Assembly: GCA_035289025.1 (NCBI GenBank)
Contig: DATDYJ010000045.1
Location: forward strand, 1-26,479
Direction of reading: 5' to 3'
Length of the DNA stretch: 26,479 nt
Source: an archaeon
GTDB taxonomy: Archaea > Aenigmatarchaeota > Aenigmatarchaeia > GW2011-AR5
Shown here: piece after piece, positions 12,001 through 18,000 of the stretch
Numbering within the stretch: position 1 is the first letter of the stretch
Layout: every line of letters begins with the position of its first letter
Made by a program: the position numbers

Positions 12001-15000
12001 CAAGAGCAATCTTTGCAGGTTCTATTTTTTCCGTATGGGTCTTAAGTAATACGATTTCGAACCCTGATTCCTTCAGAAGTCTGCGCAGTGTGTGTTTTGA
12101 AAAATAATTCACGTGGCCCAGCTGAAAATACGGGTTATTTTTGCCGCGAATCTTTGCTGTCATACTTCCCAAATTTCCCGTCTGTATAACAACCCAGCCG
12201 CCTTTTTTTAGCAGGCTATTGATTTTTTTCATCTCGTTAAGCGGCCTGTCGATATGTTCTATTACCTCGAAAAGTGTTACAACATCAAAATAATTGCTGC
12301 GGAAACCGGCCGTGCCTGCAGTGCCCGTCTTAATGTTCTTAATGCCGATCTTTCTTGCCCGATCGGCGGCATACCTCGAAAGATCGCATCCGTAAGCGTC
12401 CCATCCCATGCTGCCGGCGGTTTTTACAAACATGCCGAAAGTGCATCCGATGTCAAGCAGCCTGCCGTGTTTCAGGCCTGTTACTTTCTCTATCATTGAA
12501 AGGCGTTCTGTGTGCATGAGCCTGGTTTCTTTTTCGTACTTCAGCGGGTTGGTAAAATTGAAGCCGGTGCGGGCAGTTCCGTGATAGTAATCCTTTTCGT
12601 AAAGCTTTTCGATATTTTTTACGACGGGATTGACATACACCATGCCGCATTCGCACTTTACTACAGTAAATGGTATTTTGGATTTTATCTCGTACTTTTT
12701 CCTGTAACGGCCGCTGTTGCAAACACCGCACCTGGTCCGCTTGAACTTCAGCATAATTAGCCATCGAATTTTACTTTGAATAGCTTGACTTCGCCGCCCC
12801 AGCTGTTGACATATTCAAAGTTCTCCAGGCCCGCGCCGTTGAACAGGAACATTCTTGTAAACATCGCGTTCTCCAGCTCCGGTGGTATAAAGAGTATAGA
12901 ATTGAAGCCCGGATCTATGTACAATAGCCCCTTTATCTGCGCGTCTTCCTGTGTAATCAGCTGGCCTCTTCCCTGTTCGTCGAAATATATGTACTTCTCC
13001 ACACGCAGCGGCTGGGAATTTCCCTGCTGCTGCAGAAATGCGAGCAGCGTACCATTTGTTACGTAAAGTATAAACGTTTCCTGCTGTGAAACAGGATAAC
13101 TGTACACCACTGCATTGCGCGTCGGGTCCTGCCTCGCGTTGCCGAGGGGGATGGACGAATATACGTACGGCGTGCCTCTCTTGTCCACGGGGTTCCATGT
13201 GGAGAAATAAGTCCACCAGGTGCTTTTAGGTATTAAGTCGGCCGACGCGATGTAGTACATCTCATCGCACCCGGGTTTTCTGTACTCCTTTAGTATTTCC
13301 ACAGCCAGTGTTTCGTTTGCTGTAAGCAGTGTGGTTGATATGTCCTGTATGCGCGCTGTTGTTTTATTGCCGTTGCTGTAAAGAATTATATGATTTATGT
13401 TTGCATCGTATTTGTCGACGACAAGCCCCCCAAGTGTGTAATTGTACGGCCTGATAAATAAGTTGCTCTGTGATGCGCCGTCGAACACAACAGCGCGTCT
13501 TGCTATTCCTGTTATGAAATGTCCGGGATCCCAGTACGTAGCGATCACTGAACATTCTGCCGTGTTTTGGTTTATCCAGTTCAATCCCTGCCACCAGTTA
13601 TCCGAGAGCACCGTTCCCTGCCCGCGGGCCACCTGCAGAGCCGGCTGGTAGTAAAGATAGGACATCTGGAAAAATATGAGGAACAGCACGGCAGCAAGCG
13701 CGGCTTCGCGTCCTGTAGTTTTTTTTGTGAGTACAAGCCCTATGGCTGCGGCAAAGAATATCACCATGCCAACGATAGTATCCAGATATGTCGTAATAAG
13801 TATAGCCGCTATCAGTATCACAACTATTTCTATTTTCATTATTCAACCCCCTTGTCCTCGCCGCTGGCGATTCGTATCACCTTTGATAAGAATATTGCGG
13901 AGCCCAGTGCCAGGGGAGCCGAGAAAAGAACGCTGAACCTTATTGCGACTACCGTTGCCGTGAGCGGGCCTATGAACCATATGGCAAACAAAAGTATTGT
14001 ATCGATATGTTCCCTTCTTTTGTAGTACGAATACAGCAGGTAAATCATGGTGTACACAAACATGAAAAACGGCGATACCAACAACCCCGCCCCGCCTACA
14101 ACGCTTGTACGTGCTATCACGTCCTGCACGCCGCCCGACTGCTGCAGCTCTGCGACTGATACGTAAACATTCGGAAACTGGTTATCCTCGCCTTTTATGC
14201 TTTGGAATTGTATAGGACCGGCGAGCGCTGATGTAACCGGGCCGAACCCTTCGAACACCATCATTGCCAGCCCGAACGCTATCACCATGTAAATAGCGTA
14301 GCTGCACAGCACAAACTTTGATCTGTGCAATCCTTTTGCGAAGTTTTTTGTCTCAATTATATCGAACAACAGCCTCATTATAACAAGTCCCGTAAACAGC
14401 CAGAAAATATACCAGTAACCGGCCCAGGAGTTGTACCACACCCAGACAACTATGCCTGTTATGGCCGTGTAAAGGAAGAATTTCTTGCTGAATTTTGTTT
14501 CATTCACGGAATATTTGTACATGAAAAGCATGACGGCTATCGTGATCATTGATGTAAGAAATACTATGGCATCCGAGTCCGGATCGCCTCCCAGAGATCG
14601 CGCCAGGTTGTTGATATCAAATGTGTATATGAACGCCGCTATGACGCCGGCTTTCCTGTCGTAAATCATCTTTCCTATGAAATAAACGGGTATGGCGGCA
14701 AGCGACGCAAGGAATGCCGGGAAAAATATCAGGAACTGAAACAGGGACAGGTCCAGAAAAGACCTTGCCAGCATAAAGCTGTAAGCTCCCATGTAAACAT
14801 AAGGTTGCAGACCGGTAAGTCGCGGCATGCCGACCGGAGCCATTACGTAGTGATCCCACTCCGGCAACACTCCGTTGTTTGCAACTATTTCGTCCATTTG
14901 CCTGTAGAAAGTATACGAGTCTATGTTGCGGAGATAGTCCCACCTGTAGTCAATGAGGCGTGTGTGCATGCTGAGAAGTATTATTAAAATAAGCGCGATG

Positions 15001-18000
15001 GCAGGCCAGTAGTTTTTTAATATTTTTGTGACTTTCTTTGTTTTATTGCCCTCGGTTATAGAAAAATAGTACAGCAGCGGCCCGATCAGTGGCACAACCG
15101 TAAGAATTATCCGTTTTACGGGCTTGCGCGTCCTTATCGAGTCATACAACGCCCATAAAGAAGTGAAAAGCCAGATAACGGCAGCAATTATTGCCGAAGT
15201 AGCAATAACACCTGCCATCTCGTAAGACATTTCAATAAGTTCGCAAATAAACTTTAAATCGGCACATTTTATCTGGTATACCATGAGAATACTGATCACT
15301 GGTGGTGCGGGTTTTATCGGATCCGAGCTTGCGAAAACGCTTCAAAATCACGAAGTTGTGACATTTGACATGGCAAACGCCGACATAGAAGGCGACGTTC
15401 TTGATAAGGACAGCCTAATTGAAGCTGCGCAAGACTGCGATGTCGTATTTCACCTTGCTGCCTTTCTCGGCGTGAAAAACACGGAAGAAAACCCGCTAAA
15501 AACGCTTGACATCAACATAATGGGTGTGAGGAATGCACTGGACGCATGCGTAAAGAACGGCGTCAAGAAGATCGTATTCTCCTCTTCTTCAGAGGTTTAC
15601 GGCAACCCCGAGAGAACGCCGATATCCGAAACCGACCGTCTGGCGCCTGTATCGGTATACGGGTATACGAAAGTCGTAGGTGAGAACTACGTAAAAGCGT
15701 ATTCAGCCAAGTACGGACTGAAGTACTCGATAGTAAGGTACTTCAACGTATACGGCCCGCGGCAGCGCCTTGATTTTGTCCTTCCCAAGATGGTTCACAA
15801 AGCAGTCAGAAGTGAGCCGCTTGAAATATACGGTTCCGGGGAACAGGTGCGTGCATTCACGCATGTGAAGGACGCCGTAAATGGTACGATACTCGCAATG
15901 GAGAAAGGGCATAACGATACATTCAATATAGGAAACGACAGCGAGCCCGTAAGCATCAATGAGCTCGCGGCGCGCATAATAAAGATAACGGGATCGGGCA
16001 GCCGAATTTTGCACATCCCGCTGGCGAAGAGCGACCGCAGCGAGGCGCGGGAAATATTTAAAAGAGTACCAAGTATCATAAAGGCACGAAAGGAACTGGG
16101 ATACATGCCTGCAAAGACCCTTGACGAAGGCATATCAGACGTTGCTGATAGTTATGAAGATTTACAATGAGCCGCGGGAGATCGCGCTGGAGCGCGTTGA
16201 AAATGGAGACGTAACTGCGTGCGTAGTCGGCGCGGGGACTATAGGTCTGCCTCTGGCCACGTTTCTGGCCAATAAGAATTTCAGTGTTGCCTGCTACGAC
16301 AAAAGCAGCGAACGTGTGAAGCAGATAAACGGCGGGCAGGTCGTGTTTGAGTACCACGAAGAGCTGAAACGTGCGCTGGAAAGGGAAAAAATATCTGCCT
16401 CAACAGACCCTGCCGTGATGCGCTCCGCGGAATTAATTTTCGTTTGCGTGCCTACGCCTCTTACGCACGACAAGGCAATGGACATATCGATTCTTTTCGA
16501 TGTGGGAGAAAATATAGGAAGAAATATCTCCGCAGGAAGCATGGTAATATTCGAAAGTTCTGTTGCCATAGGCACAACCGCGCAGGTGAGAGCGAAAATA
16601 GAACAAATAAGCGGCCTGAAGTGCGGCGTTGATTTTGGCGTGGCGTACTGCCCTGAAAGGTACAATCCTGGGCTGCCAAAGGAAATACACCCTGAAATAA
16701 GGTATTCGGAAGGCGACAGTTTTCACGAACAGCATAGGTTTGACCAGATAGGGCGTGTCGTAGGCGGCGCCGACAAAAAAAGCCTGGATTTGGCAAAAGC
16801 TGTTTACTCCACAATAATAAAAGCAAAAATAAAGACCGTATCTTCCATAGAGGCTGCTGAAGCAACAAAACTCCTGGAAAACATATTTCGTGATGTTAAC
16901 ATAGCTCTTGTCAACGAACTTGCCAAAGTCTTCTCGGAGTTTAATCTTGATACGTTTGAGGTCATAGAGGCCGCCAAATCAAAGCCCTTCGCATTCCTGC
17001 CGCATTATCCGGGCTGCGGCGTCGGCGGGGAATGCATACCGGTAGATACGCATTATCTGATCAAGCAGGCGGAAGACATGGGTATCGAAACCTCGTTGAT
17101 GAACGCTGCAAGAAGCGTTAACGATTCTATGCCGCAGTACACTGTAAGTCTTCTGGAAAGGGCGTTAAAGAAAAAAGGCCGCGGCATACAGGGCAGCAAC
17201 ATAAACATACTCGGCGCGGCTTACAAGAAAAATATAAACGATACAAGACTGAGTCCTGCATTCGTGATAGCTCAAATGTTGCAAGACATGGGTGCGAACG
17301 TAAAGATATGCGATCCTCTGGTTCACGAATCGCGGCTTAACGGGCATGAATCAGTAAGTCTGCCCGACATATTTGACCGTGCAGATGCCATAATACTCGC
17401 GACCGATCACGACGTTTTCAAGTCGCTTGATTTCTCAAAGAGCGGCTCGATGAGAACCAAGACAATTATAGACGGCAGAAACTTTTTCGTTCGTGATGCT
17501 CTGGAGAAGAACGGTTTTACTTACAGATGCGTCGGAAAATCGTGATATTTCGTGGAAAAAATTCTAGTTGTAGGCGTTAATGGAATGCTCGGGAATGCTC
17601 TGGCAAAGACGGCTGGAGACAGCTTTGAAGTTGTAGGAACGTGCAACGAATCCGGCGGGCCCATAAAACTGGATATAACAAAAGCTCGCGAAGTGTACGG
17701 CCTGATTAAAAAAATAAAGCCTGAGCTCGTTGTTAACTGCGCGGCAATAACAAACGTCGACTTCTGTGAGGAAAACCCGTCCGTTGCCGAGTCTGTTCAT
17801 GTCGCAGGTACGAAAAACCTTTCTGACGCTTGCCATGAGACAGGCGTGAAGTTCATACATATATCAACCGACTTCGTGTTCGACGGGCTGAAAGGTAACT
17901 ACAACGAAACAGACCACGCCGCGCCGATAAATGTCTACGGCAGAACAAAACTGGCGGGCGAAAAGATGGCCGAGAACGATCTTGTACTAAGGACGTGTAT

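What the first reader, a model, noticed from the sequence alone, without database searches (positions are those of the whole stretch)
12757..15230. Oligosaccharyltransferase AglB is split into two translationally coupled genes
Seen: the N-half has the EL1 Asp, DxD, SVAE and RF motifs; the C-half has YWDPG. The junction reads GGGGTTGAA-TAA-TG, with stop and start overlapping by 1 nt and an SD-like G-run upstream. The second frame has its own TGA two codons before the ATG (13843-13845), so a slip in the G5 run would not fuse them. The C-half begins with extra hydrophobic segments that could re-anchor it. Established: AglB, PglB and STT3 are normally single chains. Inference: a genuine heterodimeric OST split just before the last TM.
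Basis: partly seen in the sequence, partly recalled or inferred. Interest (0 to 1): 0.7.

Follow-up and report, generated by a model that had tools for sequence, protein, structure and literature searches.

The report
Naturally two-gene AglB oligosaccharyltransferase
In this tiny groundwater archaeon (Aenigmatarchaeota) and nearly all its sampled relatives, the enzyme that attaches sugar chains to proteins is encoded by two conserved genes cut just before its last membrane helix, so the cut is inherited and the enzyme probably works as two assembled chains.

Summary
On the minus strand, a 463-aa N-half (13839-15230) carries the STT3 membrane core with both DXD motifs, SVAE and RF. A 360-aa C-half (12757-13839) carries three helices and a YWDPG domain. 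Stop and start overlap as TAATG. A TGA in the C frame sits two codons upstream.

It is not an error. Contigs from three other samples cover the junction without a difference. The same cut, with many different junction sequences, is present in all 25 relatives' loci I dissected except one. It extends to three further families.

- Both halves are under purifying selection (pN 0.13-0.28 against saturated pS).
- The split gene is the only strong STT3 hit in near-complete relatives.
- In one genus the N-half has moved away from the C-half, and both stay intact.
- Three fused forms are nested inside split clades, which fits one old fission followed by re-fusions.
- A complex model passes its controls (0.76 against 0.27), though this may reflect likeness to solved single-chain enzymes.

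Activity and assembly are inferred, not shown. No paper in the held library describes a split AglB. This scan has reported the same split before on other Aenigmatarchaeota genomes. I rate it a new variant of a known kind, of moderate to high interest.

The parts
13839..15230 (-). aglB N-half gene (463 aa plus TAA): a genus-specific 2-helix N-terminal extension, then the STT3 membrane core (about TM1-TM12) with all metal and lipid-phosphate motifs
   Evidence: ORF. Pfam PF02516 E 5.6e-18, 66 bits against a cut-off of 24.5. Aligns to A. fulgidus AglB-L 3WAJ residues 8-238 and 385-446. The exact 463-aa protein is called in public collections.
12757..13839 (-). aglB C-half gene (360 aa plus TAA): helical hairpin, TM13 equivalent and external YWDPG globular domain
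   Evidence: ORF. Profile match to STT3A 459-558, E 9e-10. AlphaFold pLDDT 91. The top 36 Foldseek PDB hits are all PglB, AglB or STT3.
13837..13851 (-). Junction GGGGGTTGAATAATG: G5 run (13851-13847, SD-like), TGA in the C frame (13845-13843), TAA stop of the N-half (13841-13839) overlapping the ATG of the C-half (13839-13837)
   Evidence: Covered without differences by contigs of three other samples.
14913..14927 (-). First DXD-type motif in EL1 (NIDSY, D104)
   Evidence: D104 aligns with Asp47 of A. fulgidus AglB. Conserved in at least 90% of 18 N-halves.
14571..14579 (-). Second DXD motif (D218-S-D220)
   Evidence: Aligns with Asp161-His-His163 of A. fulgidus AglB. Invariant in 18 N-halves.
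14148..14159 (-). EL5 motif SVAE (S358, E361), the TIXE/SVSE position
   Evidence: FPNVxVSxxE is invariant in 18 N-halves. Assigned by pattern and position, not by superposition.
13935..13940 (-). R431-F432 in the penultimate helix of the N-half
   Evidence: Invariant. Aligned with the 'nRF' of A. fulgidus AglB residues 385-446.
13729..13833 (-). Extra helical hairpin of the C-half (residues 3-37: helices 3-18 and 21-37)
   Evidence: AlphaFold secondary structure. Absent from relatives whose C-half has one helix (L010, L013, L020, L033) and from the fused forms. Not part of the confident predicted interface.
13621..13713 (-). TM13 equivalent (helix 43-73 of the C-half)
   Evidence: Aligned with STT3A 459-480. 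Residues 44-78 form the predicted interface with N-half 86-94, 197-213 and 448-457.
13522..13536 (-). YWDPG, a variant of the WWDYG motif
   Evidence: Aligned with WWDYG of STT3A. Y, W, D and G are invariant and P is at least 90% conserved in 31 C-halves. Residues 104-123 contact N-half 97-110 and 127-134 in the model.
13468..13482 (-). D120-G-A-S-Q124, at the DGGK / DNXTZNX[T/S] position
   Evidence: Aligned with DNNTWNNT of STT3A. D, G and Q are invariant.
15051..15230 (-). Genus-specific N-terminal two-helix extension of the N-half (residues 1-60)
   Evidence: Present only in same-genus rows of alignment A2. Sub-threshold PLDc_N matches only.
11900..12754 (-). Class-I methyltransferase gene starting 2 nt after the C-half stop; probably the third gene of the operon

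Best explanation
aglB, the only oligosaccharyltransferase gene found in this Aenigmatarchaeota genome, underwent an ancient gene fission in the short cytoplasmic loop between TM12 and TM13. The two products are separate polypeptides that assemble in the membrane into one active enzyme.

The N-half supplies the metal site (D104, D218, D220, E361) and the lipid-phosphate Arg (R431). The C-half supplies TM13, which packs against TM1 and TM12, and the external domain whose YWDPG loop sits over EL1 to bind the +2 Ser/Thr of the sequon.

Tight stop/start spacing (TAATG here; -4 to +2 nt in most relatives) on one operon mRNA would give coupled translation and neighbouring membrane insertion.

Shown: the split is real, old, conserved, selected on both sides, and compatible with unlinked genes. 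Inferred: assembly, activity and translational coupling.
For: - The junction is reproduced in contigs of three other samples with 0 differences.
- 24 of 25 non-redundant relatives' loci from the same order carry N-half, stop, then C-half. Junction offsets range from -4 to +65 nt, with three different stop codons.
- In a 201-genome sample of the phylum, C-half open frames are 306-517 aa in 26 of the 27 own-order genomes with a match (own genome included). They are 600-875 aa in most other families.
- The best 22 of 1.84 billion representatives are stand-alone proteins of 159-435 aa. Fused proteins appear only at 39% identity or below.
- Catalytic motifs are invariant in both halves.
- pN is 0.13-0.28 against pS 0.74-0.85 in both halves.
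- It is the only strong STT3 hit in five relatives that are 87-93% complete.
- In genus g45, one genome has GTPase-N-C. Three genomes have GTPase-C, with the intact N-half on another contig beside unrelated genes.
- Complex model: ipSAE 0.76 against a best control of 0.27. That mark was reached by 58 of 80 solved complexes and 2 of 110 mismatched pairs. Runs share at least 94% of contacts and partner pLDDT is at least 86. The interface includes TM13, YWDPG and EL1.
- The C-half model resembles only OST C-terminal domains.
Against: - There are no biochemical, proteomic or RNA data.
- The complex model may pass from memory of solved single-chain PglB, AglB and STT3 structures, so it shows likeness rather than binding.
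- The window's genome is only 65% complete, so a second aglB there cannot be excluded.
- YWDPG, DGASQ and the MI-like helix all deviate from the canonical motifs.
- The DK/MI equivalent was not verified structurally.
- Translational coupling is inferred from spacing alone.
- A few relatives have 40-65 nt gaps.
Confidence: 0.82

Rival explanations
1. The two ORFs are an assembly or sequencing error, or a recent pseudogene of a normally single aglB.
For: The junction follows a G5 homopolymer. The genome is a fragmented MAG of 113 contigs, 65% complete. Some relatives show additional frame breaks inside the N-half (L003, L004, L019).
Against: Each frame has its own stop within 7 nt, so no single indel in the G-run fuses them. 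The junction is identical in contigs of three other samples. The split is conserved across an order and beyond, with unrelated junction sequences. Both halves are under purifying selection.
Confidence: 0.02
2. A single chain is still made by recoding (ribosomal frameshift or stop read-through) or by protein splicing of the two products.
For: Stop and start overlap. One relative (L006) has an in-frame TAA directly followed by ATG. An intein exists elsewhere in the window, at 7408-10038.
Against: Frame offsets differ among relatives (-4, -1, 0, +1, +2, +10, +57 and more), so no single recoding mechanism fits. Here the C frame has a TGA two codons before the ATG. The halves lie on different contigs in three genomes. 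No intein-sized extra sequence or intein Pfam hit occurs at either end.
Confidence: 0.03
3. Both genes are functional but no longer form one oligosaccharyltransferase. For example, the N-half might act alone or with another partner while the C-half has a new role.
For: The WWDYG, DGGK and DK/MI motifs are all non-canonical. The C-half has gained variable extra helices. The halves can be unlinked.
Against: Both halves occur together in nearly every relative dissected. The residues that would form the shared active site are invariant on both sides. Three lineage-nested fused forms keep the same motifs, which implies the two parts still work as one unit. The model places YWDPG over EL1.
Confidence: 0.1

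Closest known systems
Archaeal AglB, e.g. Archaeoglobus fulgidus AglB-L (PDB 3WAJ, 3WAK, 5GMY, 7E9S)
   Same: Same family and same motif set. The EL1 Asp aligns with Asp47 and DSD aligns with Asp161/His163. There is an EL5 xxxE motif, the RF helix, a TM13 plus WWDYG-type domain, and the genes sit in a glycan-biosynthesis cluster.
   Different: A. fulgidus AglB is one chain of 13 TM helices plus a globular domain. Archaeal and bacterial OSTs are described as single-subunit enzymes (PMC8342417). Here the chain is cut between TM12 and TM13. The C-half has an extra helical hairpin. The motifs read SVAE, YWDPG and DGASQ.
Fused AglB of close Aenigmatarchaeota relatives (G030, 726 aa; G045, 875 aa; G066, 826 aa)
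   Same: Same clade in the tree (100* support), and the same motifs including YWDPG. In G030, the KEDK tail seen at the N-half end of the split forms is retained and runs straight into TM13.
   Different: These are single ORFs, and they lack the extra hairpin. They are nested inside split lineages (AU test p 0.0002), so they look like secondary re-fusions.
Eukaryotic STT3 within the multi-subunit OST complex (e.g. PDB 6S7O, 6C26)
   Same: This is the best sequence match for the C-half around TM13 and WWDYG. The EL5 motif is of the SVSE type. The enzyme consists of more than one membrane polypeptide.
   Different: In eukaryotes the catalytic subunit STT3 itself is one chain and the other subunits are unrelated accessory proteins. 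Here the catalytic subunit itself is divided.
Split genes of DPANN archaea (e.g. Nanoarchaeum equitans split protein genes; from my own knowledge)
   Same: A small-genome DPANN lineage carries a normally single protein encoded in two pieces. In one genus the pieces are dispersed.
   Different: I know of no report that lists AglB among them. Three full-text searches for AglB with split, DPANN or Aenigmarchaeota terms and two further ones found none.

Membership tests
STT3/AglB/PglB oligosaccharyltransferase catalytic subunit (Pfam PF02516, GT-C) | N-terminal multi-span membrane domain homologous to STT3 | tested here: met
   PF02516 E 5.6e-18, 66.1 bits against a cut-off of 24.5, covering profile positions 10-373 of 405. 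phmmer to 3WAJ gives E 1.9e-5.
STT3/AglB/PglB oligosaccharyltransferase catalytic subunit (Pfam PF02516, GT-C) | First DXD-type Asp on EL1 (A. fulgidus AglB Asp47) | tested here: met
   D104 aligns with Asp47 and is at least 90% conserved in 18 N-halves. The role of Asp47 is taken from PMC8342417.
STT3/AglB/PglB oligosaccharyltransferase catalytic subunit (Pfam PF02516, GT-C) | Second DXD motif on EL2 (A. fulgidus AglB Asp161, His163) | tested here: met
   D218-S-D220 aligns with D161-H-H163 and is invariant.
STT3/AglB/PglB oligosaccharyltransferase catalytic subunit (Pfam PF02516, GT-C) | TIXE/SVSE motif on EL5 | tested here: met
   S358-V-A-E361 lies within the invariant FPNVxVSxxE. It was assigned by pattern and position between hydrophobic segments, not by superposition.
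STT3/AglB/PglB oligosaccharyltransferase catalytic subunit (Pfam PF02516, GT-C) | WWDYG motif in the C-terminal globular domain | tested here: met
   The variant YWDPG aligns with WWDYG of STT3A. W103, D104 and G106 are invariant.
STT3/AglB/PglB oligosaccharyltransferase catalytic subunit (Pfam PF02516, GT-C) | DGGK or DNXTZNX[T/S] motif | tested here: inconclusive
   D120-G-A-S-Q124 occupies the aligned position and D, G and Q are invariant. However, Lys is replaced by Gln.
STT3/AglB/PglB oligosaccharyltransferase catalytic subunit (Pfam PF02516, GT-C) | DK or MI motif helix forming the Ser/Thr pocket | tested here: inconclusive
   The candidate is I164-x-x-I167-x-x-x-L171 in helix 163-172. 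R163 is in the predicted interface. No structural superposition was made.
STT3/AglB/PglB oligosaccharyltransferase catalytic subunit (Pfam PF02516, GT-C) | C-terminal domain with the OST fold | tested here: met
   Foldseek against the PDB: ranks 1-36 are all PglB, AglB or STT3. The best is 6GXC, E 1.2e-11, TM 0.50 normalised by the query.
STT3/AglB/PglB oligosaccharyltransferase catalytic subunit (Pfam PF02516, GT-C) | Catalytic subunit is one polypeptide (13 TM helices plus globular domain) | tested here: not met
   There are two ORFs with a stop in each frame at the junction, conserved in relatives. This is the point of the finding.
STT3/AglB/PglB oligosaccharyltransferase catalytic subunit (Pfam PF02516, GT-C) | Transfers a lipid-linked glycan to Asn of N-X-S/T | not testable with these tools
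   This needs an enzyme assay.
NCBIfam TIGR04154 (archaeosortase A system-associated AglB) | Score at or above the curated cut-off of 450 bits | tested here: not met
   61.3 bits. Not a member of this subfamily.

The most novel reading that the evidence does not exclude
This is a true heterodimeric catalytic core of an oligosaccharyltransferase, the first natural case in which the STT3/AglB chain itself is divided. The TM12-TM13 loop is a permissive site where fission and re-fusion have happened repeatedly. There was one old fission with at least two re-fusions, possibly a second fission in family f23, and relocation of one half in genus g45. The variable extra helices on the C-half (zero, one or more added pairs) would then act as acquired assembly or anchoring devices.
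Probability: 0.6. Interest if true: 0.7.

Novelty: new variant of a known kind. Interest (0 to 1): 0.6.

Why it matters
Every characterised N-oligosaccharyltransferase catalytic subunit (STT3, AglB, PglB) is a single chain. Its active site is formed between the membrane core and the external domain. A split that has been kept under selection across a large clade, and that tolerates unlinked genes, would have three consequences.

- It would show that the covalent link before TM13 is dispensable.
- It would mark a natural cut site for engineering split or modular OSTs, for example swapping sequon-binding domains.
- It would give a clean natural system for studying how a polytopic GT-C enzyme assembles from separately inserted pieces.

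It also matters for annotation. Pfam finds nothing in the C-half, so surveys that score AglB by length or domain content would miscall these genomes.

Tried and rejected
- **RNA evidence:** no RNA holder was listed for the junction stretch, so expression could not be examined.
- **dN/dS:** true values could not be computed because synonymous sites are saturated even within the genus. Only pN against pS is given.
- **Helix counts:** simple hydropathy counts for the C-half were unreliable. Overlapping segments appeared. Counts of 1, 2-3, 5 and 6 appeared. I therefore dropped an 'always odd number of helices' argument and rely on the AlphaFold helices for this protein only.
- **PLDc_N extension:** I recalled the N-terminal extension of the N-half as PLDc_N-like. 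Pfam gives only sub-threshold matches (E 2 in the window, 0.0014 and 0.069 in two relatives), so I do not claim it.
- **Second fission in f23:** the idea that the split in family f23 is an independent second fission could not be settled. The relevant forks have support under 80.
- **Literature:** five full-text searches and two paper look-ups found no description of a split AglB. The library lacks most subscription journals, so this is not proof of novelty.
- **TIGR04154:** subfamily membership is rejected.
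Full report
**What is there**

Both ORFs lie on the minus strand. The upstream ORF is open from GTG 15299. Same-genus relatives align only from the ATG at 15230, and public gene callers list exactly that 463-aa product. I therefore take 13839-15230 as the N-half. The downstream ORF, 12757-13839, gives 360 aa.

The junction reads GGGGGTTGAATAATG. The N-half stop TAA (13841-13839) shares one base with the C-half ATG (13839-13837). The C frame has a TGA at 13845-13843. 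A G5 run sits at 13851-13847. Because each frame is closed within 7 nt of the other's stop, no slip in the G run can join them.

**Identity of the halves**

The N-half matches Pfam STT3 (PF02516, E 5.6e-18, above the cut-off). The C-half matches no Pfam or NCBIfam model.

Against solved structures, the N-half aligns with Archaeoglobus fulgidus AglB-L residues 8-238 and 385-446.
- D104 lies on Asp47.
- D218-S-D220 lies on Asp161-His-His163.
- These are the metal ligands described in PMC8342417.
- S358-V-A-E361 sits in an invariant FPNVxVSxxE block, and R431-F432 is invariant too.

A profile of 31 C-halves matches human STT3A residues 459-558, a stretch that runs through WWDYG, at E 9e-10.
- YWDPG lies on WWDYG.
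- D120-G-A-S-Q124 lies on the DNNTWNNT motif.

An AlphaFold model of the C-half (pLDDT 91) has helices 3-18, 21-37 and 43-73, followed by a mixed globular domain. Its 36 best PDB matches are all PglB, AglB or STT3.

The cut therefore lies in the loop between TM12 and TM13. All metal and lipid-phosphate residues are on one chain. TM13 and the sequon Ser/Thr pocket are on the other.

**Not an artefact**

Logan contigs from three other samples (X4, X5, X6, in at least two other studies) cover 13757-13858 with no difference and no indel. Depth is low, at 2.4-3.4, but the assemblies are independent of the likely source sample.

**Relatives**

Record titles place the nearest genomes in Candidatus Aenigmatarchaeota from groundwater. 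One same-genus C-half is KHO47477.1 of archaeon GW2011_AR5, annotated as a 367-aa glycosyltransferase.

The C-half was found in 36 of 41 related genomes, the own genome included. I dissected 25 non-redundant loci from relatives in the same order. In 24 of them an N-half ORF lies directly upstream of a C-half ORF with a stop between them.
- Junctions differ in stop codon and frame offset: ATGA overlap, TAATG, TAAATG, TGAnATG, and gaps of 10 to 65 nt.
- About two thirds lie between -4 and +2 nt.
- That spacing is typical of coupled translation, but this remains an inference.
- Many relatives end the N-half with codons reading GGAGGAT just before the stop.

In a 201-genome sample of the phylum, C-half open frames are 306-517 aa in 26 of the 27 own-order genomes with a match (own genome included). 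The split also occurs in families f13 (six genomes), f23 (two) and f34 (one). Most other families have single frames of 600-875 aa.

In an exhaustive search of 1.84 billion representatives, the 22 best hits are stand-alone proteins of 159-435 aa. Fused proteins appear only at 39% identity or below.

**Selection and uniqueness**

Within and near the genus, pN is 0.13-0.28 while pS is saturated at 0.74-0.85. The values are alike in both halves.

The own genome is 65% complete and has one STT3 hit. Five relatives that are 87-93% complete, two of them in 2-3 contigs, have only the split N-half as a strong STT3 hit. In two of them there is also a weak GT-C-like hit of about 25 bits.

**Fission, re-fusion and relocation**

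I built a tree of concatenated or full-length sequences (37 rows, IQ-TREE quick search with PMSF, SH-aLRT support). It has a 27-row clade (100*) holding 24 split and 3 fused forms.
- Fused G030 is nested among split f7 genomes (99*).
- Fused G045 and G066 are nested among split f13 genomes (100*).

Forcing the 24 split rows into one clade costs 394.6 log-likelihood units (AU p 0.0002). I named that group after seeing the tree, which weakens the test.

One old fission with two re-fusions needs 3 events, against at least 7 independent fissions. In G030 the KEDK tail of the N-half runs straight into TM13 without the hairpin, which fits a re-fusion. The f23 pair sits in an unresolved position, so a second fission is possible but not shown.

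In genus g45, G129 has the order Obg-like GTPase, N-half, C-half. In G056 the C-half follows the GTPase directly. Its intact 415-aa N-half lies on another contig between a DegT aminotransferase and an AAA_14/DUF4143 ATPase. G092 and G163 show the same layout, judged by ORF sizes only. Both halves therefore survive unlinked. That is hard to reconcile with recoding or with decay.

**Assembly model**

Complex prediction gave ipSAE 0.76 against a best control of 0.27. The mark was reached by 58 of 80 solved complexes and 2 of 110 mismatched pairs. Runs agree in at least 94% of contacts, and partner pLDDT is at least 86.

The confident contacts join C-half 44-78 (TM13) to N-half 86-94, 197-213 and 448-457. 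They also join C-half 98-123 (YWDPG) to N-half 97-110 and 127-134 (EL1 with D104). Residues 1-40 of the C-half are not in the confident interface.

These contacts mirror intrachain contacts of solved OSTs. The pass may therefore come from memory, and it shows likeness, not binding.

**Context**

The genes sit in a glycan-biosynthesis island: GT2, GDSL-like, carbamoyltransferase, GT4, two methyltransferases, epimerase, UDP-glucose dehydrogenase, RmlD-like and GT2. A methyltransferase ATG follows the C-half stop after 2 nt. The 52-bp AT-rich spacer upstream of ATG 15230 is shared with a divergent epimerase gene.

**Comparison and novelty**

This is an AglB by every sequence and fold criterion I could test, except the defining single-chain architecture. 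Its WWDYG, DGGK and DK/MI motifs are variant.

The literature describes archaeal and bacterial OSTs as single-subunit enzymes (PMC8342417). Five full-text searches found no split AglB.

Earlier notes of this scan report the same split in other Aenigmatarchaeota genomes and a different split in a Micrarchaeota isolate. My tests on this window agree with the former. I did not test the latter.

**Verdict**

This is a new variant of a known kind. Function as a two-chain enzyme is likely but unproven.

Noticed in passing
window 7408-10038 (-): An 876-aa B12-binding / radical SAM protein is interrupted by an intein (Intein_splicing PF14890 plus LAGLIDADG_3) between the two domains.
   Followed up: no
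window 15051-15230 (-): The N-half carries a genus-specific two-helix N-terminal extension (residues 1-60). It gives only sub-threshold PLDc_N (PF13396) matches: E 2 here, and 0.0014 and 0.069 in two relatives.
   Followed up: partly
window 14148-14159 (-): The EL5 motif reads SVAE, closer to the eukaryotic SVSE than to the TIXE said to be typical of Archaea (PMC8342417).
   Followed up: no
L038, L039, L040, L056-L059 (genus g45): In G056, G092 and G163 the C-half directly follows an Obg-like GTPase gene. The N-half is on another contig, next to DegT and an AAA_14/DUF4143 ATPase. G129, of the same genus, keeps GTPase-N-C.
   Followed up: yes
L003/L027, L004, L019/L031: In these relatives the N-half itself is read in two frames. 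This is either an additional frameshift or an assembly error.
   Followed up: no
L014, L017, L025, L026 (alignment A1): C-halves of some families carry about 60-110 more hydrophobic residues ahead of TM13 than the window's protein. Others (L010, L013, L020, L033) have TM13 only.
   Followed up: partly
window 4807-6318 (+): A 503-aa ORF combines a thymidylate-synthase-like region with a PterinBD-DUF4346 domain.
   Followed up: no
window 11900-12754 (-): A class-I methyltransferase gene starts 2 nt after the C-half stop (TAAttATG). This suggests a three-gene operon: N-half, C-half, methyltransferase.
   Followed up: partly
window 22822-25435 (+): Two adjacent ORFs (279 aa and 580 aa) each match the Pfam SecD_SecF_C domain, so they are likely a SecF/SecD pair. 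They lie at the edge of the glycan island.
   Followed up: no
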